A stretch of DNA of 64,000 nucleotides from a virus. Location: the IMG/VR virus record IMGVR_UViG_3300013132_000040, positions 12,318 to 76,317 of that record; one strand, written 5' to 3'. The notes under the pieces are model-generated. The model ran no database searches. It saw nothing but the letters and a program-made list of their open reading frames with translations, and was not told where the DNA came from. A program made the position numbers and the translations under genes. Shown piece after piece: positions 1,790-34,226 of this stretch (the stretch's first letter is position 1; the number at the start of each line of letters is the position of its first letter).

Positions 1790-4700
1790 ATGAAGACTTA
1801 TTATTTAAGGTTAAAGGATGTAGATTTTTCGTTTACCGGTGGACGCTGGGTTAGTGGCGTTATCGACTTGTACGATAACGAAAGCACAATGTCTATGGCT
1901 ACGCCTTCTTACGTGAACTACAGTACCGTCACTAGTTCGTATGGAACCAACCTTTTGGGCGATGATACATGGACTGGTTTCAATATAGTAGACGACTCTG
2001 CAAGCCCTAATATAGTAACTGAATCTGGATACATTAAAGATGGCCGGTTTGTTGATACAAGCGGGAAAATTAATGTTACTACTTGGGAAGTTGTTTATAA
2101 CAATTTTTCCTTTAGTGAAGTAAGTGCTTCAATTTCTTTTTATTATACGGATCTTTCGACCTTAAACTTTCCCGAAGAGTGGCCAAAAGTCGGCCCGTTA
2201 AAAAATAATAAAGGCATATATATACCCAACTGCCCAAGGTATGCTCGTTTTATAGTTGATTTTGAGTCAGAAAAAGATTTAACTGGTATTAGTTTTGATC
2301 TTTATGTTAAGGTAAGAATTGAAAAACCGGTAATATCCCCGCTGTATGGTAGGACAAGAGGGATTCTTAGGAAGTTTCCCGAATGGATGGAGTTAAGGAA
2401 GGATAGCGAAGATTCTTCTACACCAAGCCTAGCCACTCCAACCACTGTTGCGGGTTCTTTTATTAATGCGATAGCGGGGGAATGGCTTGAAGACCTCGTA
2501 GAGACTGTTGGTTATGTACAGCTTCAGTCATTTATAGAAACTGCCGATACTGGACAGGTTGCTTGGGTATACGTCGCTGATGGCGTACCAACGCTATTCG
2601 CAAGGGCTATCGGGGATGGCACGATATTGTCGCGTGCCGCTGATGTCGTTGAATTTACTAAAGCGGCAGATGATAGCGATATATTTTACTGGGATGAAGA
2701 TAAGAGAATTATCTACACCAGAAAACTTTATCAATATTTCCAAATTGACGATACCAAATACGAGCAAAACGCAAGTCAAGTTTGGAACTGGTTTGACGAA
2801 CACGGCTTATCTCTTGACCTTGAGCGCCACACGTCGGAAAGCAATGATTCATATAAAAAGAGAATTATTGATGTCTACAGGAATAAGCCGGGCGTTGGGA
2901 TTGAGGCATTTAAACTAGCTTTGAGGCGTGAGCTCAATTTATGGCTCTATGAAGGTGCAACACCTGATTCAAATTACCTCGGTGCCACTCCTGAGGTCCT
3001 AGAAGTTAAAGACCTTTTTAATGACGAATCTTTTGTCTTTCCAAACGGAATGCCAAAAGATAAGTTTATTAAACTTGTTGATGATCTAGCAGTTAAGTAC
3101 CCAACAACTTGGGGTTACTTTAGGTGGGACCAAGCCTACTGGGATATAGATGGCGATGATTCCTTGGGATATGGGCTTTTGCCCTATCAATATGATCCGG
3201 GTCATTTATCTAACGAGAGTACTCAGTCTGGTGTTGGCGATGACCTGGACCTCTACTTGTACAAGCCCAAAGTTAATACTGGTGTAAAAGAGTTTGATTT
3301 GTCAGTGGTTGCCAAGGGTTACACATTGACCTATGTTAATGATTATGCTCCAATTAACTTTTTGATCGATGTTTATGGACGTGCAGAAAAAAGCGTATAT
3401 TCTACAGATAAAACAGAATTTCCTATGAATTTTGTTGCAACCATGTCTGACGGGAAACAATATAGGGCAAATTTAGATGTAAATATTGATAAAGCAATAT
3501 CGAACGAAGATCCTGGTTTTCTTGGGGCTTCTGCAACGGTTCCATTGGTTGAAATCGATAAGCTTTTCCCCCAAATAAATTGGTACGATGATGAACTCCA
3601 GAGATATTCCAATTCTTATGCGTCTAGCATGCAAACGAAGTTGGCCGATATAACAGGCACTTACGTATTTCAAATGCCTAGGAACTCTATTTTCAATTCA
3701 AGCAATCCCAAACTTCAGATCGGACAATCAATATCTCTTTATTCGGGTTCTTCCTATATATTTGGGACAATAAAAAATATATCACAGTCTTCCAGTTTTT
3801 ATCCCGACGAAATAGACCTTTTTGATTACCTTACGGTTGAGGATATAACGTACAGTGGAGATATAACTTCCTCAAACTGGACTATACCCTGGTATATTTA
3901 TCTCCTTAACACAGATGCCACTCCAACTTTTATGTTGTCCAATATGAAAGTTGGTTTTGGCAAGTATGAATTAATACCTAATACAATAGTGCAAAGTCAC
4001 AACTCGGTAAAAATGTTCTTTGAAAACCCAAATTCATATTACGTTGTATTTGGCCTTTCTGCTGGATCGTTAAATACTGCAACTCCATCTGTGACTAAGG
4101 ACATGGACATAGTCTTGCATCGTCTGAGTGCACAAATAATGGGTACTGTATATCATGTAGATTCTGATCCGGACGATTCAACTTATTCCGGCATAAGTAG
4201 TTCACAATCAATTAATTTAACAACTCTCACGGTTGGCGCAAGTTTGACTTTCGCTATTTCTAGTCATGTTAAGTTTGCGGTTGGCAACAAAATTAAGGTT
4301 ACTCACTCATCCAACTCTAGCAATTATTTTACTGCTACTATAACCCAGAAACTATCTGGTCCAAGTAGGTTAACCGTAACCGTGTTAAGCAAATCTGGTT
4401 CGGGTACCAGTATTGATTCTTGGTCAATTACTCCAATTTGGGATGAGGTAATAAGCGAGGCTAAAAGTATTGCCGCATTGTCGTCTTATGATGAGTATAT
4501 TATTGTTCATTTGTCTTCTGTTTCGGGAGATTGGATGGAAACTGATGGTTGGGAAATTTGGAGTAATGGGTATTTTGGTTTTGACAATTATCCTAGTGAA
4601 AATCTGACAGCATACTTAAGTGACGATTTATATAAAGCTACACCATCTCATTATCTAGAGGCACAAAGTGCTACTCCGGGTACGTATTTAAATAGTGATC

Positions 4701-7225
4701 TTAAATCTTTCCCTTCTGTAGTGGTTGGTTTGGAAGATTATTCAATTATAGAAAATTACCCCTGGGAATCTGAAGCTCAGTCCTATTACGTAACAGTTAA
4801 TTCTGGATCAAGTCCATCTAGTCAAGCTAGTTGGGAAACAATCGTGCCAGAGGTTTTGTGGGATCCCTATGTTTCTGCCACTCCAACAAAAGAAATTTTT
4901 GTGGAATTACTGACAGCCAACGAAGATGGAGATTTTGGCGCATATAGTCGAGATGTTCTTGGGAATAATATTTTTATTCCAAAGGAAAATATATACGTTA
5001 ATGGCAGTAATTCTTGGATTAACAAAAATACATATGATGCTACACCAAACCTAACTGAGCAACGCTACGTTATTGTATTAGACCCCTCTACGGAGACTAT
5101 AGAGGTTACCGTAAGTGACGATGGTTTAGTAAATTATCCTGCGCAAAGGCTTGAGTATGTTGGTTTCGAAAAAACAATTTCTTCTATTGAATCTGGTTTT
5201 GTAGATGAAAACGGTCCCTGGAGGAACGGCGTTAAACCACGTCCTGGTCAAAATAATTATGGCTTTACAGTTTTGGAATTAGATAGAGATGATTTCGCCA
5301 TCCCAAATAATTCTGATAGCATTGTCACTTGGATAGGTGTTAAGTCAAGTAATGATAGGGTTATAGTCTGGCTTGACCAAAACACCGTTAAACCAGCAGT
5401 TGAAGATGATTTAGTTTATACTCAAGAATATCAACCTAATAGTATTATTGAGACAAAAGACTTGTCCAATTTGTATTCTTATGGTCCGATCATCGTTAGG
5501 GCTAAATTGAAGCAGGATGTTAATAGTGGATGGAACCCTCAAATTCATAGCGGGTGGTTCTATAACAGGAATGATGAATATTACCTATATGTAGACCCAG
5601 TGACGGAAATTGCTTCGCCGGGTTCCGAGGGCGCCACTCTTAATAATTTTTATGCACAAAGGGTAGTCCGACAGGGTGCGCCCACCATAGTCAAAGCATT
5701 ATCTGCAACACCATTAGAAATGAGGCGTGTATCATTTTTTGATGATAGTATAAATTTGTCCTTGAAGAATACTCAATATGTTTCCGGTACCGGAACAAGC
5801 AATCTTTATCTCGCCTATGACGACGTTTATGACGCTACTGTTTCAGACTTTACTTCTGGTGCAACGATTTTGACGAACGGTAAGACAAGTACAAGCGAAC
5901 TAAACATTGGGTTAACCACTGCTGTTGATCATGTCTATAAAGTCGAATATAAATTGAAAAATTCTTACTATGTAGATAACGAGTATGTGGATCACAGTGG
6001 TGAGCAAAGGTCTAAATTTGTCTTTGATGGAACACCATCTTCCGCTACACCATTTAGTTTGACGTATGAAAATTCTATTTTTGACCCAGCTACACCAGTT
6101 GATATTGCCCTAAATCCGTTCGATACAACCATCGAAGAAGGTTTTGTATTCTTGAGTCTTAATGAATACGATGCAGCAACGCCACAGATAAGGGTTAGTC
6201 CTGGAATCCTAATCGCCAATGGTGAAGATTACGCAATAGTTTCTATTTATTCTGTGGATACTTACGGAAATCCAAAACCTAATCAAACTTATACTATTGA
6301 AACCGGTTTTGGAATATTTGAAGAGACCAATAGCAGCACTGCGACTATATTGACTAATCAGGATGGTTTTGCGTTTTTGACGCTTGTTTCGGAATCGGGT
6401 TCCTTAGTTGAATCGGCAACCGTAAATGTGTACGCCTCACCAACTGTAGGCGGTAATGCTATAGCCCAAATGCCATTTGGCATTAATGCCCGAAAAGTTG
6501 AGGAACATAAACTTTATTCAACTGTTGATCCAGATGCAATACCCGCAGATGGTGTTAGTGCAACTTCTGTGTACGGAAAAGTATTGGACCCCTCTGGAAA
6601 TATCGTTCCTTATGCGTACGTTTCATACAGGAAGGGTAGATCATTAAGTGAAATATTCTCCAATACAGACGCCACACCAGATGTGGGTCCAGGTGCGACA
6701 CCTGCAGCAACGCCAGTATGGCCAAATGTTGGTAGGGTAATTTCTGATGCTAGCGGCATATTCCGCATAGGACCATTTACGGCGTCTACGCCAGGAGAAG
6801 ACGGTTATTGGTTTGTTATGACTGAGTCTTTTTCTTCTAGTCCATCTTCCCAATGGGGCACAGTTGGTGATGTTGTTTTTTGGCAAGAGTACCCACCAAG
6901 GTTTAACGCTGTTAACGGCGATAATCAGTCTATACCTGTGCCTTCTAATTTGGATGTTTCGCAAACTCTTTGGGTGGATGACGTTGGTGCCTTAAGGTTT
7001 GAACCCCTTATTCCTCCAGCCGCAACTGTAAATGCTTTTCCTGTAACTTTTGATGAAGAAACACCTACTGCTGATGCAACTCCTGTTACTAATATATGGA
7101 GTCCGCCATTGTGGTATGCGGTTAATCGTTATGATCAGTATCAGCGTGGAATATTAGGTGACGATTTTTATGTATTTAAAATTGAAAACTTGCCTAAAAC
7201 CCATCCAGACTATAGGGATGTATAA
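1790..7225 (+). CDS. Giant virion structural protein (baseplate wedge-like segment, Ig-like Big_1 domains, 18 Ala-Thr-Pro motifs)
   Basis: LERHTSESNDSYKKRII...GIEAFKLAL resembles baseplate wedge gpI-type proteins; invasin-like IANGEDYAIVSIYSVDTYGNP and IPADGVSATSVYGKVLDPSGN; context next to baseplate J. Confidence 0.65.
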   Translation: MKTYYLRLKDVDFSFTGGRWVSGVIDLYDNESTMSMATPSYVNYSTVTSSYGTNLLGDDTWTGFNIVDDSASPNIVTESGYIKDGRFVDTSGKINVTTWEVVYNNFSFSEVSASISFYYTDLSTLNFPEEWPKVGPLKNNKGIYIPNCPRYARFIVDFESEKDLTGISFDLYVKVRIEKPVISPLYGRTRGILRKFPEWMELRKDSEDSSTPSLATPTTVAGSFINAIAGEWLEDLVETVGYVQLQSFIETADTGQVAWVYVADGVPTLFARAIGDGTILSRAADVVEFTKAADDSDIFYWDEDKRIIYTRKLYQYFQIDDTKYEQNASQVWNWFDEHGLSLDLERHTSESNDSYKKRIIDVYRNKPGVGIEAFKLALRRELNLWLYEGATPDSNYLGATPEVLEVKDLFNDESFVFPNGMPKDKFIKLVDDLAVKYPTTWGYFRWDQAYWDIDGDDSLGYGLLPYQYDPGHLSNESTQSGVGDDLDLYLYKPKVNTGVKEFDLSVVAKGYTLTYVNDYAPINFLIDVYGRAEKSVYSTDKTEFPMNFVATMSDGKQYRANLDVNIDKAISNEDPGFLGASATVPLVEIDKLFPQINWYDDELQRYSNSYASSMQTKLADITGTYVFQMPRNSIFNSSNPKLQIGQSISLYSGSSYIFGTIKNISQSSSFYPDEIDLFDYLTVEDITYSGDITSSNWTIPWYIYLLNTDATPTFMLSNMKVGFGKYELIPNTIVQSHNSVKMFFENPNSYYVVFGLSAGSLNTATPSVTKDMDIVLHRLSAQIMGTVYHVDSDPDDSTYSGISSSQSINLTTLTVGASLTFAISSHVKFAVGNKIKVTHSSNSSNYFTATITQKLSGPSRLTVTVLSKSGSGTSIDSWSITPIWDEVISEAKSIAALSSYDEYIIVHLSSVSGDWMETDGWEIWSNGYFGFDNYPSENLTAYLSDDLYKATPSHYLEAQSATPGTYLNSDLKSFPSVVVGLEDYSIIENYPWESEAQSYYVTVNSGSSPSSQASWETIVPEVLWDPYVSATPTKEIFVELLTANEDGDFGAYSRDVLGNNIFIPKENIYVNGSNSWINKNTYDATPNLTEQRYVIVLDPSTETIEVTVSDDGLVNYPAQRLEYVGFEKTISSIESGFVDENGPWRNGVKPRPGQNNYGFTVLELDRDDFAIPNNSDSIVTWIGVKSSNDRVIVWLDQNTVKPAVEDDLVYTQEYQPNSIIETKDLSNLYSYGPIIVRAKLKQDVNSGWNPQIHSGWFYNRNDEYYLYVDPVTEIASPGSEGATLNNFYAQRVVRQGAPTIVKALSATPLEMRRVSFFDDSINLSLKNTQYVSGTGTSNLYLAYDDVYDATVSDFTSGATILTNGKTSTSELNIGLTTAVDHVYKVEYKLKNSYYVDNEYVDHSGEQRSKFVFDGTPSSATPFSLTYENSIFDPATPVDIALNPFDTTIEEGFVFLSLNEYDAATPQIRVSPGILIANGEDYAIVSIYSVDTYGNPKPNQTYTIETGFGIFEETNSSTATILTNQDGFAFLTLVSESGSLVESATVNVYASPTVGGNAIAQMPFGINARKVEEHKLYSTVDPDAIPADGVSATSVYGKVLDPSGNIVPYAYVSYRKGRSLSEIFSNTDATPDVGPGATPAATPVWPNVGRVISDASGIFRIGPFTASTPGEDGYWFVMTESFSSSPSSQWGTVGDVVFWQEYPPRFNAVNGDNQSIPVPSNLDVSQTLWVDDVGALRFEPLIPPAATVNAFPVTFDEETPTADATPVTNIWSPPLWYAVNRYDQYQRGILGDDFYVFKIENLPKTHPDYRDV

Positions 7226-10200
7226 TGGAAAAGTTTGAAAATGTTACATCTACTGGTAACGAAAAGGCGATCAGGAGGGGTAACAGTGTTCCCGAAGGCG
7301 ATATTAACATCGCTTGGGTAAAATCGCCAACATTTTCTCCCCAAAATAGTATGGTGGTTTTGGACACGTCTAATTTAGTCCTGGAAAATTCTGGAGATCA
7401 AAGTTCTGTATCAAAATTTGCGTATGCAAATCATTTAGGAATTTTACAAGATGAATTTGGAAATGAATTATTTTTTGACGAATACCCAGCAGTAACCGAT
7501 GAGTTTAGTGTAGAAGAAAATTATGATATTTCAGAAGATAATGAGTTTTCTGAAGGTTACATTTTTGCCTATAAACATGTAAGTCGCTATTTCCATGTCG
7601 ACCAAGAAGATTTAGTCCAAGGTTCTGAGCCATTAACTTTACAAAAAGAAAAAATTATAGTAGAAGATGAAGACGGCAATGAATATGTAGATTTAAATAA
7701 TAAAAAAAGGTATAAAGTAAAGTTACTTAAATCAGATGAATACCTCGAAACGCAAGATAGGACAATTGGCGTTTATAGGATTTGGGTTTTTATTGATACT
7801 GACATAAACGAAAGTTTATATTTAAGATACAATAAGGCTGAACTTAGTAGTGATGGTAAATACATAAAGAACCAAAAAACTGATTATAGAGAAATTTTAA
7901 ATCCACAGCCATATTTTTCATATGTCCCTGAAGAAACCGATGTAACTGATCTTGGTAGTTTAAATAAAAAAATTTATTCAACAAAGTCTACGTCTCAAAA
8001 AGAACAAATTATTGGTATTCCAAGATCTAGTTCTGAAGGATATAAGGTTTATGTACCAAGGAAAGCGATACAGGACCCAAGGCTTTTCCAAACATTCAGA
8101 TGGAGAATTAAAGCTGATTTCCAGGAAAGATACACTATAGATCCAGAGAATCAGCCGAAAGTTATTAGAGCTGGAGTTTTAATTTCTAATAATTCAATTT
8201 ATCCCAGAAGATTGTCGGATCTAGAAAACCAGGGCCCTGGTATTCAATACAATTATTTGCAACCCCCAACAAATTTTCCTTATGTTTTTTATAATCTAGA
8301 AAAATCCGATTATAATCCATCGGGCGCAAAAATTGTAAATCCCCTTTCAGAAGATAGGGGTTATACAATAGTGGAAGATATTGACCCCGCAGTACAAAGT
8401 CCTACAGATGGCAATGCCCTGTACAATAGTCCCTCGTTTACGTGGAAAGGGAATATTACGGCACCACTTAAGAGGGTGTCTGGTGAAGGGGCAAAAGAGT
8501 ATGCTAGCTATTGGATTGTTAATTTTGATACTGTTACAGATGAAGAATTAAGAAAATTTGATATATTATTTTTAGATCCTACACAATTCCCAGCAGATTT
8601 ATCAAAGTATACTGGAAAGATTTACAGGTTTACGAGAGAATTTGGTGGTTTACTTTATATTCCCCTTGGCGGTTATGGGAGGAAGGTGGGCTTAGGGCCT
8701 ACGACAACTCTGCCCATTCATCCGTACACTGGCGTATTTGCTAGTTCAACCTTTGCTTCTGGGGTCTCGAACGCCGATAAATCTTTTGGGCTTGGGGATA
8801 CTATTGCGCCTAGAATAACTTCGGATGAATTGTTTAATGGCTTAAACCAATATGGTGGTTGGGATTTTGATTCTGACTCGTATGCCTCTGTTTCTCCTTT
8901 TAAATTTCATCCCAGTGTATTGTACACTAAAGAAAGAAGTTATGTTCAGTTTATAAATTCCGCAGAAGACGCAGCAACGAATGATGGACTTGAATATTGG
9001 AAGACTCTATTTGAAGTAAACGAACGTGCCGCAAGTTCTGTTCCTGGTCAAATCACTACGCCAGTAGTAAAAAAGTATCCCGTAACGCTCATTAAAAGGT
9101 TTGCTTCTGGCGGCTCAATTATTTACGATACCCAAAACATTATTGCCGAGTGCGCAAAACTTGAGGATTCTGTAAATATAGCGCCAAGAAGACTTCAGAT
9201 TCCAAGCTATTTTCAGCAAATAAATTCAGGTAGATTTGAAGGTTCATACAAATTTGCATGGAACTCAATTCTCGCCACTATTAAAAGTAGGCCACTTGAT
9301 TCTTCTGATCAGAGTAGTTATGTTTCTTCCTGGAGTTTTGAAACAGAATGGAAACCATCTTGGGTTATTAATGGTGGTGTTTTAAAGACTGCAGAAAAAA
9401 CAAAGTACTCTTTTAATTATGAACCAGAAGATTTAAATTCTCCAAATACTTTTGCGTGGAGAAGAAAATTAGCATACGGCTTAAATTCGGCCAGTTATCC
9501 CATTTTTAAAACAATTAAAGAAATAGTAGATGAGCAAATCGTCAAAGAAATGGGGCAACAGTTTCTCCTGAATATATCGGGGTCTTCTAGAAAGTATTCT
9601 ATCGAAGTAACAAATGCCAATGTCAAGGTTCCAGTTACATTAGTTGACGATATGTATCCGTATGCCTGGACCAATGAGTATTCTCCAACATTATTGATAC
9701 CAGAAGGTTTTGGTCCGCATATTGTTAGGGAAGACCCAATAATGGCGCAATATTCTTCTGGTCAATATATCGATAAAAGTTATCCTCCCAATAAGTTTGC
9801 GGTAAAAGTTAAAGCAAGTTACCGGGAAACAGCTCAGTCTACCAAAAGAGAAACTACTACGATTTTGGCAAGGTATAGGGGTAAGGAAATACTTCCAAAT
9901 GGTTTTATTTACAGTCACGTCTTTTTGCCCAGAACTTGGACAGAACATGGTTCAAATCAACTTCTTTTTAATAGGTTTAATAAAGCTTGGGGTGCACCAA
10001 GGCCAAATTCGATACTTTCTAGGAATGAATTATTTTTAAGTCAAACTACAGCTTACCCTTTTGCTGGTATAGCCGGATCGTATTCGCAGGGAAGTAGTGG
10101 GGAAGTTGTTCGTTTTATTCAATATAGTTTGAATAAACTTCACGAAATTATAGGACTCCACTTAAATCGCGGAGTTAATGGCCCTATTCCCGATGGAATG

Positions 10201-13200
10201 ATAGCGCAAGATGGTTACGCAATGGCTTCATCTTGGGCGTTGAAGTATAGATTGCCGTCTGGGCAGTTAGATCAAAGTGGGGTTTTTGACGAAAGGACTG
10301 CAGAAGCGGTAAAAAGTCTAAAAGTCTTAGCTGGATCAAGGTATGCGGACGGTATAGCTGATTCCGACTTTTTTTCTATATTGGGAAGTCAGATTCAATT
10401 CTGGGGTCTGACTACAGATATAAATGAAAATACCAGGAATCCTGGATCTTTTGATACGTCAGAATATAATTACCTAAGATATACAGCATACGCAAATAGG
10501 TATATGGATTTAAAAAATATATCCGACTCATCTACTCTTTACAACTATGTGGAAATGTCAGATTCTAGAAGGCCTGATATTGATCGAATTTCAGATGTGT
10601 TTTTAATCCAATACCCAAAAGTTTATAATTTTGACCATATTTCAGTAACACCATATCTCCTGGGCCAAGGTTCGAATATTAACATAGATTTTGTTGATGT
10701 TAGAAAAACCCGTGTAGATACCACACGTTTTACCGGCGATATGCTCAATAAGGCGTGGCAGTATTTTGAGATTGAAGAAAGAAGTGGCGGTGGGTCTGGG
10801 TGGGTGCCGGATAGTCCTAGGATTTTATGGGGACAAAATCCAGAATACTGGGGCTCCAATAATGTCAAGCAAACTACTTGGGACTACAGATATTGGAATG
10901 GCATTACTAAAACTCCAGTTAGTTACTCTGCATTACCGTTTGTTAGTGTAGAAAATGAAAAAGCATACATACGAATGCTCCAAAGAGCTTTGCAGGTTTA
11001 CCCAGATGGTATTTTTGGTCCTGCTACTGCCGCAGCTGCAAGGCGATGGAAGGTAACAAGGGCATCCCAGTGGGGTATACCGGTCGATAGTAACTGGGGT
11101 TTAATTTCTGCCGTCACCACTATACAGAAACTTCTTGGACTTCCGCAGGATGGTTTTTATGGTCCAGAAACAGAACGTGCCGTAATGAATTGGCAGGCAA
11201 ACTGGAATGGCGCAATGCCCGTAGACGGTTTTTGGGGTCCTATAACTCAAAAGTTTACTGACGAACTTTTTATTTTCTTAGGCGGGACACCAACAGTTGA
11301 AAGAATCCAAAGACATCTTCCTCAACCATATTTTGTATGGCCAGAAAATCTCCTGAGATCATACGATCCCGCCCAGGCCTTAATTCCCAGGGCTAATATA
11401 ACTGCACCAGTTGGTACTAGGACTGATGTTTCTTTGCCTCAAAATACTAGAAGTATTGGAAACACCATTATTGTAGGGGTATCTTCTACTCAAAGAGCTG
11501 GTATCGAGTACGGAAATCAACTTCAGCTTGGCATATCTGATATTACTGGATATGGAAGGGATTATGTTGGTTTCAGAACCCTTTCTGGGGAAGCTGCAGT
11601 TATAGATTATGAGGGTGTTGTAACTAAGGCATTTACGTTTTATGGAGATATTGGTCCTATACAGCTAAACCATAATTACGGGGAAACCGGTGCGCCGGGT
11701 CGATTGACGGATGTGGAGTGGGGAATCGATCCTATATCTGAGGTTTCTACAACAATTTTTCCTGGATTTGATCCTTCTTCTGTTGGTTTGTTTAGGATTG
11801 AAAGTAGTAACCCAAATGTAGAAGCTTTTATAACCCGAAACGGCAAAGTGTATCTTAGGACTAGTGAAGTCATAAATAATAATACATCAAATTACACAGA
11901 GGGCAGATGGTTACCCGGTCCGCCAGATCAGCCGCTCAACGGTAAAGTTTTTGCTATATCCAGTAGGAATCCGGATTCTGTATCCGAAATAGATACTCAA
12001 AAAAATCCAGTTTACGCCATGGACGAAAACGGTAGAATTTTTCCTGGGGTTGAAACAGGTTTTATTAGTAAAGCCGATGGCATAAAGCTTCTTTGTACGT
12101 TAGATGGGAAACCGATTGGAATACCCGTCATGCCTTCGGGTATAGGGGCCGAAGAATACCAAAGACATTACGTAGATATAGAATTAGAATCCTATGCTAC
12201 TTCCCCATTCGTAAATATAGGTTTTTACGATAAAAATCAAAAAGAATTTATTATAAATAAGGATGGTTCATCTAAGTTAAGTTATATAGAATATGTCAAA
12301 AGGGGTCCCCAAAATATATATATTGGCGTTGTTTCATCTGCTGAAGTTGTAGAAAAGAAAAACTTGCCTCAAGTTGTAGATGGATTGAATGAGCTCCCAT
12401 TTAAGTATGTAATGCCTGTTTACGGTTTGGTTTCAAAGACAAAAACCAAAATAGGTATTGAACCTATTAACTCTAACCTTGGCGCCACTGACATCTGGGG
12501 TGTGCCTATAAGGGTTGGGTCTTTTAACAGGAATATTAATTTACCGAGTTACTCTTCATCCCCGATTGTGGGTTGGCTATCCAAATACCAGGGTAGAACA
12601 GTACATGCCTTTTACTCGGTCCCTGAAGCTAATTTAAACTCATGGTCATCCATTTTTGGGCGTCCATACATTGACGTGAAGGGTGAGCATCCAAATCTCC
12701 TCCAAGAAGATGTACTTCAGGTGCGTCAGTTTCCGATTCTCTCTGTAACCGAACCAACTCAAAAGCCATCGCTATCCGATCCGGAAAGACCGGTATTAAA
12801 GGTTTGGACTCGTCAGTCAATTGACGATGAATGGACTGAACTAAAACGGTCTGATGTTATAGACTATAACCTCTCAAATGGATTGGTCTACTTACGTACC
12901 CCTTTGCCCCAAAAGGATTCAAATCTCATTAAAGTAGATTACACGACCGTAAGTCGCGTCTACACTGCTAAGTCAGCAAATGGGCAAAAAGTTAATTTAA
13001 ACCCGTATTTAAAAATACGTGAAGACATGATTGGTGTACCGGTGTATGTTTACTTGGTTCCTGAGTATGTAAAAAATGAAGATATGGAAATTATTGACGA
13101 ATCAACAAATTCTTCTACCGTAAAGATTACAACAGATAATTCGGAAATCAACCCTTATGACCCATTTTATAACCCTCTCGCCGTACAGCTTGGTGTAATT

Positions 13201-13512
13201 TTTGTTTCCGCAACTGCGCGTGTTGACGACTTGGTTGTGCTCGACACCAGAAAAAGGGGCGGTGGTGCAGTTGATTCATTAAAAACCGCTGAGATATTTA
13301 ACGAAAATACTTCAGCTTTGTCCTATTGGGATGTTGGTTTTGGTGCGGGGAATACATTCCAAACTGGAGGCTTTGTTGTAATTCGTCTCCCCAAGATGCT
13401 AAAAGTTGTTTTTCCTGATACTAAAGAGGTAGAGCAAATTATCAGGAGGAACATTTCCGCTGGTGTTGAGTTTGTTTTGGAAGATCTAGAAGGGCGTCCG
13501 TGGGATGAATAG
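7225..13512 (+). CDS. Giant virion structural protein with internal peptidoglycan-binding (PG_binding_1-like) domains
   Basis: QGSSGEVVRFIQYSL...GVFDERTAEAVK...DGIAD; LQRALQVYPDGIFGPATAAA; IQKLLGLPQDGFYGPETERAVMNWQ...VDGFWGPIT; C-terminal LDTRKRGGG; translationally coupled within the structural operon. Confidence 0.7.
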   Translation: MEKFENVTSTGNEKAIRRGNSVPEGDINIAWVKSPTFSPQNSMVVLDTSNLVLENSGDQSSVSKFAYANHLGILQDEFGNELFFDEYPAVTDEFSVEENYDISEDNEFSEGYIFAYKHVSRYFHVDQEDLVQGSEPLTLQKEKIIVEDEDGNEYVDLNNKKRYKVKLLKSDEYLETQDRTIGVYRIWVFIDTDINESLYLRYNKAELSSDGKYIKNQKTDYREILNPQPYFSYVPEETDVTDLGSLNKKIYSTKSTSQKEQIIGIPRSSSEGYKVYVPRKAIQDPRLFQTFRWRIKADFQERYTIDPENQPKVIRAGVLISNNSIYPRRLSDLENQGPGIQYNYLQPPTNFPYVFYNLEKSDYNPSGAKIVNPLSEDRGYTIVEDIDPAVQSPTDGNALYNSPSFTWKGNITAPLKRVSGEGAKEYASYWIVNFDTVTDEELRKFDILFLDPTQFPADLSKYTGKIYRFTREFGGLLYIPLGGYGRKVGLGPTTTLPIHPYTGVFASSTFASGVSNADKSFGLGDTIAPRITSDELFNGLNQYGGWDFDSDSYASVSPFKFHPSVLYTKERSYVQFINSAEDAATNDGLEYWKTLFEVNERAASSVPGQITTPVVKKYPVTLIKRFASGGSIIYDTQNIIAECAKLEDSVNIAPRRLQIPSYFQQINSGRFEGSYKFAWNSILATIKSRPLDSSDQSSYVSSWSFETEWKPSWVINGGVLKTAEKTKYSFNYEPEDLNSPNTFAWRRKLAYGLNSASYPIFKTIKEIVDEQIVKEMGQQFLLNISGSSRKYSIEVTNANVKVPVTLVDDMYPYAWTNEYSPTLLIPEGFGPHIVREDPIMAQYSSGQYIDKSYPPNKFAVKVKASYRETAQSTKRETTTILARYRGKEILPNGFIYSHVFLPRTWTEHGSNQLLFNRFNKAWGAPRPNSILSRNELFLSQTTAYPFAGIAGSYSQGSSGEVVRFIQYSLNKLHEIIGLHLNRGVNGPIPDGMIAQDGYAMASSWALKYRLPSGQLDQSGVFDERTAEAVKSLKVLAGSRYADGIADSDFFSILGSQIQFWGLTTDINENTRNPGSFDTSEYNYLRYTAYANRYMDLKNISDSSTLYNYVEMSDSRRPDIDRISDVFLIQYPKVYNFDHISVTPYLLGQGSNINIDFVDVRKTRVDTTRFTGDMLNKAWQYFEIEERSGGGSGWVPDSPRILWGQNPEYWGSNNVKQTTWDYRYWNGITKTPVSYSALPFVSVENEKAYIRMLQRALQVYPDGIFGPATAAAARRWKVTRASQWGIPVDSNWGLISAVTTIQKLLGLPQDGFYGPETERAVMNWQANWNGAMPVDGFWGPITQKFTDELFIFLGGTPTVERIQRHLPQPYFVWPENLLRSYDPAQALIPRANITAPVGTRTDVSLPQNTRSIGNTIIVGVSSTQRAGIEYGNQLQLGISDITGYGRDYVGFRTLSGEAAVIDYEGVVTKAFTFYGDIGPIQLNHNYGETGAPGRLTDVEWGIDPISEVSTTIFPGFDPSSVGLFRIESSNPNVEAFITRNGKVYLRTSEVINNNTSNYTEGRWLPGPPDQPLNGKVFAISSRNPDSVSEIDTQKNPVYAMDENGRIFPGVETGFISKADGIKLLCTLDGKPIGIPVMPSGIGAEEYQRHYVDIELESYATSPFVNIGFYDKNQKEFIINKDGSSKLSYIEYVKRGPQNIYIGVVSSAEVVEKKNLPQVVDGLNELPFKYVMPVYGLVSKTKTKIGIEPINSNLGATDIWGVPIRVGSFNRNINLPSYSSSPIVGWLSKYQGRTVHAFYSVPEANLNSWSSIFGRPYIDVKGEHPNLLQEDVLQVRQFPILSVTEPTQKPSLSDPERPVLKVWTRQSIDDEWTELKRSDVIDYNLSNGLVYLRTPLPQKDSNLIKVDYTTVSRVYTAKSANGQKVNLNPYLKIREDMIGVPVYVYLVPEYVKNEDMEIIDESTNSSTVKITTDNSEINPYDPFYNPLAVQLGVIFVSATARVDDLVVLDTRKRGGGAVDSLKTAEIFNENTSALSYWDVGFGAGNTFQTGGFVVIRLPKMLKVVFPDTKEVEQIIRRNISAGVEFVLEDLEGRPWDE

Positions 13513-29155: not shown

Positions 29156-29366
29156 AGTAAAAATCAACTTAGAAAATGGTCAATCATATGTGATTGCCGA
29201 TATGAGCACTTGGGTTGACTTGTCTTATGCAATAAATTCAATGGCCGAACAGTGGCCAAAAGATGCTGAGGAATATTCATTGTGGATTAAATTTCTTGAC
29301 CTCTTTGAATCCCAGTATTTAGGAAATCTTTTTGAAGAACCTTACGAAGATGATGGTTGGAGTTAG
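29145..29366 (+). CDS. Hypothetical acidic protein
   Basis: Coupled ORF in the operon. Confidence 0.55.
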   Translation: MPAKVKINLENGQSYVIADMSTWVDLSYAINSMAEQWPKDAEEYSLWIKFLDLFESQYLGNLFEEPYEDDGWS

Positions 29367-29374
29367 GTTTTTTT

Positions 29375-30202
29375 ATGATTGATTTGTGTATTGTTTCTTA
29401 TAATACAAAAGACAAATTAAAAAGATTGATTGATACTTTAGCGTCTGATTATAAAGCAGACATGTTTAATCTTTATGTCCTTGACAATAACTCTACGGAT
29501 GGTTCGCAAGATTATTTGACAAGCGTTGTGAAGCCTTTGAATTGGCCGGGTGAAATTATATTAAGTTCTTTTAATTACGGCTATTCTTTCGCGTGTAACC
29601 TTCTAGCTTCGCGCGGCAAAGCAAACTTAATAGGACTACTTAATGCTGACGTTTGGTTAAGGACGCAGGATATAAATACTATTGAGAGCAGGATTTACGA
29701 ATTAGACGCAGATATATATGGACCAAAACAAAGAAATGAAATGGGGTATATAACGCATGCGGGAATATTTGGCAGCAATACCCACCCACAACACCGGGGT
29801 TGGAAGGCGCCAGATCCAGAAGATAGGCTTTTTAGAGACACCTTAGACGCAGTTACAGTATCTGGATCCGCCTATTTCGTTAAGAGGACTGCATGGGAAA
29901 ATCTGACTTACGATCCCGAGTATATTAACCTTTTGGGTCATTTAGTTGGTACGAACAAAATACCTTTGTGGTCTATTCTTTCTGATGGCGCATTTCTGCC
30001 GACACCTCACTACTATGAGGAAACTTGGTGCTCCTATTACGCAAGACATAGGGGTTATAGTGTTGTTTATGATGGCTATGTTTCTATAGGGCATAGCTGG
30101 CATGCGTCATCGGAGATTGGTGGGGAGCAAGATTCTAAGTTTAGTATTAGTCAGTCAATATTTAGGGAGTCCTGCGACTACATGGGGATTCCAAGGGATT
30201 AA
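29375..30202 (+). CDS. GT2-family glycosyltransferase (rhamnosyltransferase-like)
   Basis: IVSYN, DNNSTDGS, NYGYSFACN, LLNAD, VSGSAYF, HYYEET. Confidence 0.88.
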   Translation: MIDLCIVSYNTKDKLKRLIDTLASDYKADMFNLYVLDNNSTDGSQDYLTSVVKPLNWPGEIILSSFNYGYSFACNLLASRGKANLIGLLNADVWLRTQDINTIESRIYELDADIYGPKQRNEMGYITHAGIFGSNTHPQHRGWKAPDPEDRLFRDTLDAVTVSGSAYFVKRTAWENLTYDPEYINLLGHLVGTNKIPLWSILSDGAFLPTPHYYEETWCSYYARHRGYSVVYDGYVSIGHSWHASSEIGGEQDSKFSISQSIFRESCDYMGIPRD

Positions 30203-30212
30203 GGTATTTATT

Positions 30213-30905
30213 ATGTTAATAGCCAATATGGTAGGCAAAAACGAGGCTGATAGATTTCTTGATGATGTGTTAAGGCATTTATCGGGTATTGTGGATCTTA
30301 TAGTTTTCACCGATGATTGTTCAGAGGATGAAACGAAACAGATAGCATCTGGTTATGCAGAAACTTTTAGCACAGAAGAAAATCTTTTTACTAAAGACGA
30401 AGGGCGCTTACGGACTATAGCTTGGTCAAATCTTTCGAAGTTTGCTAAACCTGGCGATTGGATTTTGGCTATTGACTGTGATGAAAAACTTTGGTCTACT
30501 GTTGAGAATTTTGACATGGTGTCTTTGCTTAACCAAAATAGATATGATGTAATTAATATTAAATTTTTCCATATGTGGAATGAAACGCAATATCGCGTAG
30601 ATAAATTATGGGCACCGAATGATAGCTCTAGATTGTTTAGGTTTTACGATGGGGGTGTCTTTAATGATCGTAAGTTGGCGTGTGGTTCTGAACCGACTTA
30701 TGTCAATTCTCTGATTCGTTCCGGAAGTTACTTGCGTGATAGCTCGCTCATTATGCAGCATCTTGGCTATGTTCGTGATGAAGATAAAAAAATGAAATTT
30801 GATAGATACATGCAATTAGATGGTGGCGATTTTCACCAAAAGAGCCATATAGAGTCTATTGTCGACCCCGAACCGGTTTTGCTCGATTGGCGTATATATG
30901 CCTAA
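30213..30905 (+). CDS. GT2-family glycosyltransferase
   Basis: GKNEADRFL, DDCSEDET, WILAIDCDE, HLGY. Confidence 0.85.
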   Translation: MLIANMVGKNEADRFLDDVLRHLSGIVDLIVFTDDCSEDETKQIASGYAETFSTEENLFTKDEGRLRTIAWSNLSKFAKPGDWILAIDCDEKLWSTVENFDMVSLLNQNRYDVINIKFFHMWNETQYRVDKLWAPNDSSRLFRFYDGGVFNDRKLACGSEPTYVNSLIRSGSYLRDSSLIMQHLGYVRDEDKKMKFDRYMQLDGGDFHQKSHIESIVDPEPVLLDWRIYA

Positions 30906-31575
30906 GGTTAGTGTTATATTGACCGTTTACAATAAGCCGCAGTGGTTGCGCCAATGTATCGATTCCGTATTGGCTCAGACATTTGATGATTGGGAATTAA
31001 TTGTATTGGAAGATAATTCTCCAAATCAAGAAGTCAAAAATATCCTAGAACAATACAGTTCTAATGAAAAAATTAAAATATATTATTCAGATGTAACAGA
31101 AGAAGATCGATACAAAACCGCAAGATACGCAACGCTCATAAATCATGGGGTAAGGAACATGTCATCTGGAGAATATATCAGTTATTTAACAGATGATGAT
31201 TTTTATTATCCCAATAGGCTTGAGAAGATGGCGAAAATGCTTGATATTACTGGTGTTCCAATCGTTTACGGAAATCAGCAGGTAGTGGATGCAGACGGTA
31301 ATCCTAGCGGCATTAGAGAAACACAAGGTATTTTGGATTCAGCTTGGAATATAGTGGATCATAACTCTGTAATGCATCGTAGGGATGTTTTTTTTGAGGC
31401 TGAAGGTTGGCCAGACTCGCCAGATATTTGGGGAGGTGCAGACGCCCACTTTTGGGAAAGGGTGACTAGTCTAGGCCATAAGTTCTACCCCATAGAAGGG
31501 GCTCCACTGGATGCCAAAAGGTACCATACCGGCAGCGTACAGTGGCTTGTGCATAACGGTCAGTTCTTCCCATGA
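30898..31575 (+). CDS. GT2-family glycosyltransferase (SpsA-like)
   Basis: VSVILTVYN, SVLAQTFDDWELIVLEDNS, GEYISYLTDDD, VDHNSVMHRR. Confidence 0.9.
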   Translation: MPKVSVILTVYNKPQWLRQCIDSVLAQTFDDWELIVLEDNSPNQEVKNILEQYSSNEKIKIYYSDVTEEDRYKTARYATLINHGVRNMSSGEYISYLTDDDFYYPNRLEKMAKMLDITGVPIVYGNQQVVDADGNPSGIRETQGILDSAWNIVDHNSVMHRRDVFFEAEGWPDSPDIWGGADAHFWERVTSLGHKFYPIEGAPLDAKRYHTGSVQWLVHNGQFFP

Positions 31576-32255
31576 CAACTACGCAATTCCCGGTACTCGT
31601 AACTTGCCGTGACAGGGTTAGTGACTTAAAGAACCTTATTTGTTGGTTTGAAAAAGTCGGATTAGAAAGAGTATATCTATTAGATAATCACTCAACATAT
31701 GAGCCGCTTTTGGATTTTTATGAGGAAACTTGGTGTCAAGTTTTAAAATTAGGGGATAATTTCGGCCACATTGCTGCCTGGAAAGCCAATATAGTACAGA
31801 CTATATGCGCAGACGAACATTTTATTGTCACGGACCCTGACGTAATCCCGGTAGAAGAGTGTCCTGATGATGCTGTTGATTATTTTTTTGACATTTTGAA
31901 TAAAGAAAATGACATTACTAAAGCGGGATTTGGTTTGAGGATAGATGATTTACCAGATTCGTTTAGGTTTAAGAATGAAGTTATACAATATGAAACACGT
32001 TTTTGGGACAAAAAGCACCATCCCGACTATAATCGCTCACCAATAGACACTACGTTCGCCTTGTATAAGCCAAATTCTACTCCAGATATAAGCTTCTCCA
32101 TTAGGACTTGCTACCCATATGTCGCTAGGCATATGCCATGGTATGTTGATAGCCACAATTTAACCGAGGAAGAAACCTACTATAGGGAACATGCAATTGA
32201 CTCAATAACTTCTTGGAATAAAGACCATTTGCCACATTGGTGGTCTCCTTCATGA
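31572..32255 (+). CDS. GT-A fold glycosyltransferase
   Basis: TCRDR, LLDNHSTYEPL, NFGH, IVTDPD, IDTTFALY, ARHMPWY. Confidence 0.8.
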   Translation: MTTTQFPVLVTCRDRVSDLKNLICWFEKVGLERVYLLDNHSTYEPLLDFYEETWCQVLKLGDNFGHIAAWKANIVQTICADEHFIVTDPDVIPVEECPDDAVDYFFDILNKENDITKAGFGLRIDDLPDSFRFKNEVIQYETRFWDKKHHPDYNRSPIDTTFALYKPNSTPDISFSIRTCYPYVARHMPWYVDSHNLTEEETYYREHAIDSITSWNKDHLPHWWSPS

Positions 32256-32923
32256 GTATTTATTGCGTAATTCCAACAATATGGAAAAATGATATGATTT
32301 ACAATTTAGTGAATCAGCTGAATCAGCAGAATGAATTTATCAATTTATTTGTACTTGATAATATTGCTCTTGGTTCAAAACATGTTGGTAGATTTGGTTC
32401 CGATAAAATATTTGAGATACCAACTAGTGGTCTCGGAATTTATGAGCAATGGAATCTCGGGGTAAAAGAATGCCTTAAAAACGATGATTGCGAAAGTATT
32501 GTTATATTGAATGATGATATTGTTTTAAAATGTGATAACTTTTTAAGTAAACTAGTTCATCCATTTGAGGATCCTTTAATTTGGGCCTCGTGTGCAAATT
32601 ACGACGATCGCGAATCGGACACTGAGTTTACTGGAGTATACGGAACCTACAAGGATAGAGGATTTGCAGGCTTTGCTTTCGGGGTTAAGGCGTCTGCTTA
32701 TTCTGAGGGTTTAGCATTTTTTGATGAACAGTATAACTGGTGGTTTGGCGATGATGACTTTGTTCATACTGTACATTCGGCAGGTAAAGAAACCGTAATG
32801 TCAATTGCGGCCAAAGTGGAGCACGTAAACGGCGGATCCCAATCGACCTCTCAATATACGCCAGAGTTTAATTATTTAGTCGAAAAAGACAAGGCTTTGT
32901 ATCTAAGGAAATGGCATGGATAA
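32252..32923 (+). CDS. GT2-family glycosyltransferase
   Basis: VIPT, VLDN, WNLG, ILNDD, GFAF, FDEQYNWWFGDDD. Confidence 0.82.
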   Translation: MSIYCVIPTIWKNDMIYNLVNQLNQQNEFINLFVLDNIALGSKHVGRFGSDKIFEIPTSGLGIYEQWNLGVKECLKNDDCESIVILNDDIVLKCDNFLSKLVHPFEDPLIWASCANYDDRESDTEFTGVYGTYKDRGFAGFAFGVKASAYSEGLAFFDEQYNWWFGDDDFVHTVHSAGKETVMSIAAKVEHVNGGSQSTSQYTPEFNYLVEKDKALYLRKWHG

Positions 32924-33590: not shown

Positions 33591-33598
33591 TATAAGTA
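33583..33598 (+). promoter_or_regulatory. Extended -10 promoter TGCTATAAT, probably leaderless
   Basis: TGnTATAAT ends 7 nt before ATG 33599. Confidence 0.5.
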
Positions 33599-34225: not shown

Positions 34226-34226
34226 A

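What the first reader, a model, noticed from the sequence alone, without database searches (positions are those of the whole stretch)
1790..7225. Ala-Thr-Pro motif occurs 18 times in one baseplate/Ig-domain protein: candidate O-glycosylation sequon
Seen: the exact tripeptide ATP occurs 18 times, dispersed through the 1811-aa protein (MATPS, LATPT, GATPD, GATPE, DATPT, TATPS, KATPS, SATPG, SATPT, DATPN, SATPL, SATPF, PATPV, AATPQ, DATPD, GATPA, AATPV, DATPV). Near-variants also occur (ASP, STP, GTP, ETP). The codons vary (GCT-ACG-CCT, GCC-ACT-CCA, GCA-ACA-CCT, GCT-ACT-CCG), so this is selection on the peptide, not a DNA repeat. At typical residue frequencies fewer than one copy is expected, and the adjacent 2095-aa protein shows no such enrichment by eye. 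Established: Thr in Ala/Pro contexts is a common O-glycan acceptor, and some actinophages glycosylate their virions with their own glycosyltransferases. Inference: a phage-defined acceptor tag placed in surface loops and modified by the GT cluster at 29.4-35 kb. Alternatives are a phosphorylation site, a protease site or a docking motif.
Basis: partly seen in the sequence, partly recalled or inferred. Interest (0 to 1): 0.85.

Follow-up and report, generated by a model that had tools for sequence, protein, structure and literature searches.

The report
Ala-Thr-Pro tag on phage tail protein
One giant outer tail protein of an uncultured jumbo phage carries 18 scattered copies of the tripeptide Ala-Thr-Pro (chance gives 0.4); the whole phage clade keeps this tag on its outer tail proteins and a few lineages dropped it wholesale, so something reads it, most likely a phage sugar-adding enzyme, though no chemistry shows this yet.

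Summary
The 1811-aa protein (window 1790-7225, +) has 18 in-frame ATP tripeptides against 0.44 expected (p about 4e-23; at most 5 in 20,000 shuffles). The other five orderings of A, T and P occur 0-1 times. The rest of the 76-kb contig has one ATP.

The tag is a clade-wide trait. ATP is the top tripeptide in all 79 homologs, and flanking genes in 80 loci sit at chance (63 against 64.0 expected). The motif is [A>S]-T-P with no flanking consensus. A few sites are near-invariant and most turn over, while the count stays at 8-21. Seventeen of the 18 sites lie in predicted coil.

In four complete relatives, unrelated tail fibre and sheath proteins also carry the tag. Six nested orthologs lost it wholesale, with Thr replaced and the Ala/Pro scaffold often kept. 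This points to a trans-acting reader.

One soluble GT2 (window 29357-30202) is conserved in 14/14 tagged genomes. The rest of the sugar-gene island varies. The enzyme link is unproven, and tag-less genomes could not be fetched. Cultured relatives (0305phi8-36, Moorella phage) lack the tag.

This scan already reported the same tag on four related phages. I found no published description.

The parts
1790..7225 (+). Tagged outer baseplate/fibre protein, 1811 aa, with 18 ATP sites. The ATP codon triplets lie at nt 1898, 2432, 2957, 2984, 3917, 4079, 4637, 4670, 4877, 5039, 5705, 6044, 6089, 6176, 6671, 6695, 6707 and 7076 (9 nt each).
   Evidence: Residues 190-385 match phrog_21059 'virion structural protein' (E 2e-22). 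There is a sub-threshold Big_1/Invasin_D3 match at 1462-1547. tblastn matches 0305phi8-36 ORF162 and Moorella phage virion proteins. The C-terminal model is a string of Ig/MG-like beta-sandwiches resembling InvE and intimin.
2432..2440 (+). ATP site 215, conserved in 58/79 homologs
   Evidence: It lies in coil just before helix 220-246. Tag-less orthologs read TEP, RVP, AVP, AEP, SAE, SRP.
2957..2992 (+). Paired sites 390 and 399 (GATPDSNYLGATPE), the most conserved of all: 60/79 and 76/79
   Evidence: They lie in a coil region after helix 384-387. At site 399 the tag-less orthologs read AYP, AYP, AHP, ATP, QDI, ALP.
6089..6097 (+). ATP site 1434 (FDPATP), conserved in 53/79. It is the only site predicted inside a short strand.
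6671..6715 (+). Triple-ATP loop (DATPDVGPGATPAATP, residues 1628-1642). Site 1640 is conserved in 43 of the 66 homologs that have residues at that column.
   Evidence: coil, pLDDT 66-75
29357..30202 (+). Conserved soluble GT2 (GT-A) glycosyltransferase and the candidate reader of the tag. The likely start is the ATG at 29375.
   Evidence: PF00535 E 2.5e-12. A full-length ortholog at 42-80% identity is present in 14/14 tagged genomes and absent from 5 untagged records. Motifs are conserved, including LNADxW, and there is no hydrophobic segment. No solved relative was found by sequence.
30859..34976 (+). Variable sugar cassette: GT2 (30859-31575), three unassigned ORFs (31572-33590), NeuD/PglB-type sugar acetyltransferase (33599-34225) and GT2 (34200-34976)
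   Evidence: None has an ortholog in the complete relatives G001-G004, although both flanks are syntenic. The GT2 at 30859 has its only match in the distant genome G013.
7225..13512 (+). Neighbouring 2095-aa virion protein with a PG_binding_1 domain. It is untagged (0 ATP, expected 0.38) and serves as an internal control.

Best explanation
[Ala>Ser]-Thr-Pro is a short, ordered tag placed in loops of this outer baseplate/fibre protein. In complete relatives it is also found on tail fibres, the sheath and small virion proteins. The tag is read in trans. The most likely reader is the clade-conserved soluble GT-A glycosyltransferase (window 29357-30202). In this reading it puts a first sugar on the Thr hydroxyl in the cytoplasm during virion assembly, and the neighbouring strain-variable GT/acetyltransferase cassette then extends that sugar into a lineage-specific glycan coat on the tail.

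Shown: the tag, its order specificity, its family-wide maintenance with positional turnover, its presence on unrelated proteins, its wholesale loss in nested lineages, its loop location, and the conserved GT2 next to a variable cassette.

For: 1. Specificity: 18 ATP against 0.44 expected, while the other orderings occur 0-1 times. The pattern is in frame only.
2. Family trait: ATP is the top tripeptide in 79/79 homologs, with 8-21 copies each. In 80 IMG/VR loci only the ortholog is enriched, and the flanks have 63 ATP against 64.0 expected in 424,123 aa.
3. Sequon-like evolution: ATP occupies 159 alignment columns. At 20-30% identity 19% of sites are shared, against 4.2% for generic tripeptides, while the count stays at 12-15. 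The usual replacement is STP (100 cases) and then ASP (18). Family-wide, ATP occurs 1125 times, STP 292 and ASP 135.
4. Not fold-bound: in the complete genomes G001-G003 a fibre/minor-tail protein has 8-11 ATP. The G001 one shows no BLAST similarity to the window protein, and the others are not its ortholog. In G001-G004 the sheath (2-3 in G001, G002 and G004) and a ~256-aa protein (3 in G002-G004; 2 in a 257-aa ORF beside its G001 ortholog, which has 1) are also tagged. Genome totals are 26-57 ATP against 11-13 expected.
5. Wholesale loss: P0105, P0111, P0115, P0120, P0121 and P0130 have 0-1 ATP, yet they nest within tagged clades with support 0.98-1.00, which implies at least 2 independent events. 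At the ancestral sites Thr is replaced while Ala and Pro are largely kept.
6. Location: 51 of 54 tag residues lie in predicted coil.
7. Candidate enzyme: the GT2 ortholog is present in 14/14 tagged genomes and 0/5 untagged records, and it looks soluble and intact. The rest of the island is variable. There is no conserved kinase. P4H-type oxygenases occur in only 2 of 4 complete genomes. No ThyA-type hydroxymethylase or TET/JBP enzyme is present that could create a DNA acceptor.
8. Established knowledge: tailed phage virions assemble in the cytoplasm, so only soluble cytoplasmic enzymes can reach them. Many O-glycosyltransferases prefer Thr over Ser and favour a nearby Pro.
Against: No chemical evidence of any modification exists. 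The GT2 co-occurrence is confounded by phylogeny: 18 of 27 core contig genes are likewise undetectable in the untagged genome G013. Generic GT2 genes also occur in untagged G013/G014. The GT island sits among nucleotide-metabolism and replication genes (ThyX, dCMP deaminase, DnaB), a position also typical of DNA-modifying GTs. Other prolines in the protein are 79% coil, so the loop location is only weakly discriminating. The neighbouring 2095-aa virion protein, presumably also exposed, has no tag. The genomes of the tag-less lineages could not be retrieved, so the key prediction is untested.
Confidence: 0.48

Rival explanations
1. The tag is read in trans, but not by a phage glycosyltransferase. 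The reader could be a host cytoplasmic enzyme such as a kinase, an OGT-like transferase or a hydroxylase. It could also be a binding partner, such as an assembly chaperone, a decoration protein or an environmental ligand, that recognises [A/S]TP loops. The wholesale losses would then reflect host switches or loss of that partner.
For: All the evidence for a trans-acting reader applies equally: the tag on unrelated proteins, the block losses and the positional turnover. The GT2 link is only correlative and is confounded by phylogeny. About half of the genes in the clade have no assigned function, so an unknown reader is possible.
Against: No kinase is conserved in the complete tagged genomes. 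P4H-type oxygenases are absent from G001 and G004. The phages do carry a conserved soluble GT with no other evident substrate. The strong preference for Thr over Ser at the central position (1125 ATP against 135 ASP) fits a hydroxyl-modifying enzyme, but it does not distinguish which one.
Confidence: 0.27
2. The tripeptide is an intrinsic structural device of this lineage's proteins. For example it could be a preferred loop, strand-entry or helix N-cap element (Thr cap, Pro at N1), multiplied by drift and compositional habit. No reader is involved.
For: 17 of 18 sites lie in coil, often 0-6 residues before a strand or helix. The two most conserved sites (390, 399) partly survive in the tag-less proteins: P0115 and P0120 keep site 390 and P0111 keeps site 399. 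Proline-containing tripeptides are usually found in loops anyway.
Against: The same genomes use ATP at chance level in all other proteins (63 against 64.0 expected; 1 in the rest of the window). The tag appears on unrelated folds. Nested orthologs with the same fold lost nearly all sites, replacing Thr with Tyr, His, Leu, Glu, Val or Arg while keeping Pro. Cultured homologs lack it entirely. There is no periodic spacing and no flanking consensus.
Confidence: 0.1
3. The sites are processing or cross-linking points, such as protease cleavage sites or covalent intersubunit bonds, used during tail maturation.
For: Large phage virion proteins are often processed.
Against: Eighteen dispersed cuts would fragment the protein inside folded Ig-like domains. 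Positions turn over rapidly. The residues Ala, Thr and Pro have no known cross-linking chemistry. No conserved protease lies near the tail module in the window.
Confidence: 0.03
4. The GT island, including the conserved GT2, modifies phage DNA or a host surface polymer and has nothing to do with the tag.
For: The island lies between ThyX/dCMP deaminase and the DnaB helicase. Earlier first-reader notes on related phages raised the same possibility. Phage GTs that hypermodify DNA are well known (Pyle et al. 2024, as cited in PMC12619734).
Against: No ThyA-type hydroxymethylase or TET/JBP enzyme was found in the four complete tagged genomes or in the partial window contig. No membrane segment, flippase or lipid-carrier enzyme was seen in the island. 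This rival concerns only the enzyme and leaves the tag itself unexplained.
Confidence: 0.12

Closest known systems
Virion O-glycosylation of mycobacteriophages (Che8, Corndog, Myrna) by phage-encoded glycosyltransferases (Freeman et al. 2023, Cell Host Microbe; known to me only through its summary in PMC12619734, because the paper itself is not held)
   Same: A tailed phage carries its own soluble GT genes, and virion proteins are the proposed acceptors in the cytoplasm.
   Different: In those phages the glycans sit at the C-termini of capsid and tail-tube subunits, and the summary I could read names no defined short sequon. Here the tag is a discrete, ordered tripeptide scattered through loops of baseplate, fibre and sheath proteins in an unrelated jumbo-phage clade. 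The modification here is not demonstrated.
Sequon-directed bacterial protein glycosylation, for example the Bacteroidetes O-glycosylation motif D-(S/T)-(A/I/L/V/M/T) and the cytoplasmic NGT/HMW1C N-X-(S/T) system (from my own knowledge)
   Same: A three-residue motif with a hydroxyl or amide acceptor defines the sites. The motif is gained and lost freely in exposed regions of the target proteins.
   Different: The motif is different ([A/S]-T-P). The proposed enzyme is a small, divergent GT-A with no detectable similarity to those transferases. The system is virus-encoded and restricted to a few virion proteins.
Giant-virus self-glycosylation: chlorovirus PBCV-1 Vp54 with virus-encoded GTs and non-canonical sequons, and mimivirus fibril glycans made by viral gene clusters (reviews PMC9614988, PMC5408694, PMC7019647, listed but not read in detail)
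   Same: Virus-encoded cytoplasmic GT clusters, including sugar acetyltransferases, build glycans on structural proteins at virus-specific sites, independently of host machinery.
   Different: Those are eukaryotic viruses with N-linked or fibril glycans. This is a bacteriophage with a candidate O-linked Thr tag and an undemonstrated modification.
Bacillus phage 0305phi8-36 ORF162/ORF163 baseplate-fibre module and Moorella phage MTATph1 CDS49/50 (PMC2147016)
   Same: They share a homologous N-terminal domain (phrog_21059), the same position after the baseplate genes, and a C-terminal intimin/invasin-type Ig domain. The region is described as hyperplastic.
   Different: The cultured homologs are split into two genes and carry 0-1 ATP. 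Neither genome has a PF00535 GT2 match.

Membership tests
Phage virion glycosylation system (mycobacteriophage Che8 type) | Phage-encoded glycosyltransferase genes | tested here: met
   Three PF00535 GT2 genes and a NeuD/PglB-type acetyltransferase lie at 29.4-35 kb. One GT2 is conserved in 14/14 tagged genomes.
Phage virion glycosylation system (mycobacteriophage Che8 type) | Glycan chemically demonstrated on virion proteins | not testable with these tools
   The phage is uncultured, so there are no virions and no mass spectrometry.
Phage virion glycosylation system (mycobacteriophage Che8 type) | Acceptor sites at the C-termini of capsid and tail-tube subunits | tested here: not met
   The sites are dispersed from residue 37 to residue 1763 of a baseplate/fibre protein. 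In relatives the other tagged proteins are fibres, the sheath and small virion proteins.
Sequon-type modification tag | Short ordered motif with a modifiable residue, enriched far beyond what composition predicts | tested here: met
   18 ATP against 0.44 expected, with the other orderings at 0-1. ATP is the top tripeptide in 79/79 homologs.
Sequon-type modification tag | Number of sites maintained while positions turn over, on unrelated target proteins | tested here: met
   159 columns carry ATP. 19-35% of sites are shared at 20-40% identity while the count stays at 12-15. Unrelated fibre and sheath proteins are tagged in G001-G004.
Sequon-type modification tag | Tag present only where the reading enzyme is present | tested here: inconclusive
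   The GT2 ortholog is found in 14/14 tagged and 0/5 untagged records, but 18 of 27 core genes share this pattern against G013. The genomes of the nested tag-less lineages could not be obtained.
Sequon-type modification tag | Sites solvent-exposed | tested here: inconclusive
   51 of 54 tag residues lie in predicted coil, against a 58% coil background, and other prolines are 79% coil. No coordinates were available to compute accessibility.
Bacterial Ig-like Big_1 / invasin-intimin domain proteins | Pfam Big_1 or Invasin_D3 match above the gathering score | tested here: not met
   Big_1 scores 32.4 bits against a cut-off of 34.9, and Invasin_D3 scores 29.4 against 33. There is fold-level similarity to InvE and intimin D0-D1 and to MG-domain arrays, so the resemblance is at the level of a domain and does not amount to family membership.
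0305phi8-36-type baseplate/fibre module (phrog_21059) | N-terminal domain homologous to ORF162-type virion protein, encoded after the baseplate genes | tested here: met
   phrog_21059 matches at E 2.2e-22. tblastn matches ORF162 and its relatives. The gene order is syntenic with G001.
Structural sequence repeat (collagen-like, beta-helix or DNA tandem repeat) | Periodic spacing, shared flanks or DNA-level repetition | tested here: not met
   The spacing is irregular. Flanking information content is at most 0.5 bit. Codons vary, and the DNA pattern occurs in frame only.

The most novel reading that the evidence does not exclude
A clade of uncultured jumbo phages defines its own O-glycosylation sequon, [Ala/Ser]-Thr-Pro. 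A conserved soluble GT-A primes the Thr, and a rapidly exchanged cassette of further GTs and an acetyltransferase builds a lineage-specific glycan coat on the tail. Lineages that abandon the system erase the tag. As far as I could find, this would be the first defined sequon for phage virion glycosylation.
Probability: 0.4. Interest if true: 0.85.

Novelty: new variant of a known kind. Interest (0 to 1): 0.7.

Why it matters
Phage virion glycosylation has been shown experimentally only in a few actinobacteriophages, and I found no published short acceptor motif for it. A three-residue tag that can be read directly from sequence would have several uses.
- Glycosylated virion proteins could be predicted from metagenomes.
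- It gives a simple experiment: co-express the 275-aa GT2 with a tagged loop.
- It may offer a compact sequon-enzyme pair for cytoplasmic glycoengineering.
- It would help explain how phage tails vary their surfaces.

It is order-specific, protein-specific, and was lost wholesale at least twice.

Tried and rejected
- DNA-level motif: rejected. GCNACNCC occurs only in frame 0 of this gene, with varied third codon positions.
- Megablast against phage records: no match.
- Foldseek on the N-terminal 900-residue model: nothing below E 0.001.
- Local MAFFT of the full family: timed out. The alignment tool was used instead.
The proteins come from Logan/ENA assemblies. They were not found in IMG/VR, the JGI metagenome scan or GTDB genomes (which returned only another tagged member). 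The decisive co-loss test could therefore not be run.
- Generic GT2 presence as a discriminator: rejected, because untagged G013/G014 also carry GT2 genes.
- A second universal GT, claimed in earlier notes: the ~291-aa GT2 of G002 has only a weak match in G001 and none in G003 or G004, so I could not confirm it.
- Complex prediction of the conserved GT2 with the triple-ATP loop (residues 1615-1660): no verdict. This is not evidence either way.
- Kinase and prolyl-hydroxylase readers: neither is conserved across the tagged genomes.
- PDB sequence search with the GT2: no hit.
- The Freeman et al. 2023 paper is not held. The moraphage paper (PMC12619734) describes a different, T4-like lineage.
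- Host identity: not resolved. Two related contigs are binned under unrelated MAG names (Nitrososphaera, Iamiaceae), which I treat as binning noise.
Full report
**Observation**

The ORF at window 1790..7225 (+) encodes 1811 aa.
- Composition predicts 0.44 copies (Poisson p 4.4e-23). In 20,000 shuffles the mean was 0.44 and the maximum 5.
- Order matters. APT, TAP, TPA, PAT and PTA occur 1, 0, 1, 1 and 1 times.
- ATP accounts for 18 of 23 TP dipeptides.
- The degenerate DNA pattern GCNACNCC occurs 18 times in the gene, always in frame 0 and never on the opposite strand. Selection is therefore on the peptide.
- The rest of the window's ORFs hold a single ATP, and the adjacent 2095-aa virion protein holds none.
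- The whole 76,317-bp contig has 19 ATP in 22,452 aa, 18 of them in this protein.

**What the protein and the phage are**

The window comes from an uncultured jumbo myovirus. The gene follows the tape-measure/hub and baseplate genes.
- The N-terminal domain (residues 190-385) matches phrog_21059 'virion structural protein'.
- tblastn finds only distant matches (23-29% identity) to Bacillus phage 0305phi8-36 ORF162, to related Bacillus jumbo phages and to Moorella phage MTATph1.
- In 0305phi8-36 this is the 'hyperplastic' ORF162-164 baseplate/fibre region (PMC2147016; annotation).
- Pfam gives only sub-threshold Big_1/Invasin_D3 matches at residues 1462-1547.
- AlphaFold models built on a 70-sequence alignment reached mean pLDDT 74.6 for residues 1-900 and 81.1 for residues 901-1811.
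- The C-terminal half is a string of Ig/MG-like beta-sandwiches that Foldseek matches to invasin InvE, intimin D0-D1 and macroglobulin-domain arrays. The N-terminal model matched nothing significant.
- The protein is therefore an outer baseplate arm or fibre. It is not from an actinophage.

**The tag is a clade-wide trait of this ortholog**

A search of 5.8 billion protein clusters gave 79 homologs. ATP is the single most enriched tripeptide in every one of them, with 8-21 copies against 0.2-1.1 expected, down to about 25% identity.

In 80 IMG/VR loci, every ORF with three or more ATPs is the ortholog or a fragment of it. The other flank ORFs have 63 ATPs in 424,123 aa against 64.0 expected.

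The cultured distant homologs have 0-1 ATP. A more distant uncultured relative, G013, has no tag anywhere: 6 ATPs against 9.4 expected over 47,542 aa.

**Anatomy and evolution of the tag**

- The 1125 ATPs of the family fall in 159 alignment columns. The most conserved are site 399 (76/79), site 390 (60/79), site 215 (58/79) and site 1434 (53/79). Most other columns are lineage-specific.
- Flanking positions carry at most 0.5 bit of information. There is a weak preference for G/S/D at -1, D at -2 and Y/F at -3.
- Where a conserved site is not ATP, it is usually STP (100 cases) and then ASP (18). Family-wide, xTP is A 1125, S 292 and T 61, and AxP is T 1125 and S 135. The motif is therefore [A>S]-[T>>S]-P.
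- At 20-30% pairwise identity, 19% of ATP sites are shared against 4.2% of generic tripeptides. At 30-40% identity the figures are 35% and 9.2%. The mean count stays at 12-15 throughout.
- Sites are therefore both maintained and continually gained.

**Structure**

Of the 54 tag residues, 51 are in DSSP coil. The exception is site 1434, which sits in a 3-residue strand. The coil background is 58%, and sites often lie 0-6 residues before a strand or helix. Other prolines of the protein are 79% coil, so this is consistent with surface loops but discriminates only weakly.

**Evidence for a trans-acting reader**

The tag is not tied to one fold. In the complete, terminally redundant relative G001 (231 kb), the following carry ATP:
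- the ortholog, with 17;
- a tail-fibre protein with FN3 domains and no BLAST similarity to the ortholog, with 11 against 0.83 expected;
- that fibre's 590-aa neighbour, with 3;
- the sheath, with 2;
- another virion protein, with 2.

The G001 genome total is 57 against 13.3 expected. G002, G003 and G004 show the same pattern. A fibre/minor-tail protein has 8 in G002 and G003. The sheath has 2-3 in G002 and G004. A conserved ~256-aa protein has 3 in each of the three genomes. Genome totals are 26-44 against 11-12 expected.

The tag has also been lost wholesale. The exhaustive profile search found six full-length orthologs with 0-1 ATP: P0105, P0111, P0115, P0120, P0121 and P0130. In a tree of 144 sequences built on 624 columns (FastTree, LG+gamma, midpoint-rooted):
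- P0105 is sister to the tagged P0100/P0097, with support 1.00;
- the other five lie in a clade (support 0.98) together with the tagged P0098, P0049 and P0103.

This implies at least two independent events, and probably more. At the ancestral sites the tag-less proteins read as follows:
- site 399: AYP, AYP, AHP, ALP, QDI, and one retained ATP;
- site 215: TEP, RVP, AVP, AEP, SRP, SAE.

Thr is what is lost, while Pro and often Ala remain. Thr is thus dispensable for the fold. It is conserved only in lineages that keep the whole system.

**The candidate reader**

The island at 29.4-35 kb contains three PF00535 GT2 genes, a NeuD/PglB/VioB-type sugar acetyltransferase and three unassigned ORFs. 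It lies between ThyX/dCMP deaminase and the DnaB helicase.
- The window is syntenic with G001-G004. Within the island, however, only the first GT2 (29357-30202) has orthologs in them, and the interior genes have none.
- That GT2 has a full-length ortholog (42-80% identity) in all 14 tagged genomes examined. It has none in G013, G014, G015, 0305phi8-36 or the Moorella phage.
- It has conserved GT-A motifs, including an invariant LNADxW, and no hydrophobic segment.
- It has no solved relative by sequence and only faint family matches.
- A conserved soluble GT next to a shuffled cassette fits a priming enzyme followed by variable extension.

**Caveats**

- Eighteen of the 27 contig genes conserved in G001-G004 are also undetectable in G013. 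The tagged/untagged contrast therefore mostly reflects phylogenetic distance.
- Generic GT2 genes also occur in untagged G013/G014.
- A second universal GT, suggested in earlier notes, was not confirmed.

**Rival readers and rival substrates**

- No kinase is conserved. There is one sub-threshold hit, in G001 only.
- P4H-type 2OG-Fe(II) oxygenases occur in 7-8 copies in G002 and G003, some next to the tagged fibre genes. They are absent from G001 and G004.
- For the alternative that the GTs act on DNA, no ThyA-type hydroxymethylase or TET/JBP enzyme is present in the four complete tagged genomes.
- These results leave phage-encoded O-glycosylation of Thr as the most economical reading. A host enzyme or a binding partner remains a serious rival.

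**What could not be done**

The decisive test is whether the nested tag-less phages have lost the GT2. It was blocked for three reasons:
- the proteins come from Logan/ENA assemblies;
- the proteins are absent from IMG/VR, the JGI scan and GTDB genomes.

**Prior knowledge**

Full-text searches found no description of an Ala-Thr-Pro or similar sequon in phages. The nearest precedent is mycobacteriophage virion glycosylation at the C-termini of capsid and tail-tube subunits (Freeman et al. 2023, as summarised in PMC12619734).

Within this scan, the same tag was already reported on four related phages (e1-5856683, e1-5664439, e1-5664433, e1-5741201).
- I independently reproduced their claims of tagging on other outer virion proteins and of block loss.
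- I could only partly reproduce the claimed GT association: I found one universal GT, not two.

**Verdict**

The tag is almost certainly read in trans (about 0.8).

Noticed in passing
window 30859-34976 compared with G001-G004 and G013: The interior of the GT island is a replaceable cassette between conserved flanks (ThyX side and the 34986-35618 ORF/DnaB side). None of its six genes has an ortholog in four complete relatives. The GT2 at 30859-31575 has its only BLAST match (32%) in the distant genome G013, which suggests horizontal shuffling of sugar genes.
   Followed up: partly
G002:C1 104257-104550, 201085-210619 and 465-773; G003:C1 58020-58313 and 159323-169581: G002 has seven and G003 eight P4H-type 2OG-Fe(II) oxygenase genes (PF13640). 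One lies directly downstream of the ATP-tagged tail-fibre gene in each genome. G001 and G004 have none.
   Followed up: no
window 7225-13512: The 2095-aa neighbour carries a PG_binding_1 domain (residues 1306-1342) and has zero ATP despite being a large virion protein, so tagging is selective among outer tail proteins.
   Followed up: partly
window 596-1777: A 393-aa protein inside the baseplate module matches PHROG 'exonuclease' families (phrog_284, E 7e-41). At 61-66% identity to G002-G004 it is one of the best-conserved proteins of the contig (ThyX is similar, 65-67%), but it has no match in G001.
   Followed up: no
window 24192-27245: The 1017-aa ribonucleotide reductase has extra short matches to unrelated PHROGs around residues 376-464, which could mean an inserted element or domain. 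It has no BLAST match in G001 but is 55% identical to its counterparts in G002-G004.
   Followed up: no
G003:C1 2-3169 and 208687-210303: The tagged ortholog of G003 is split across the two ends of the record (8 + 5 ATP), consistent with a circularly permuted assembly.
   Followed up: no
L160 (CAZBTQ010000001.1, 210,765 bp) and P0028: Complete-size contigs of this phage clade are deposited inside MAGs labelled Iamiaceae and Nitrososphaera. These are probably binning artefacts and not evidence of the host.
   Followed up: no
tree: Tag-less orthologs sit on longer terminal branches than their tagged sisters (for example P0105 at 0.89 against 0.41-0.42, and P0121 at 0.97). This suggests faster sequence change after the tag was lost.
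   Followed up: no
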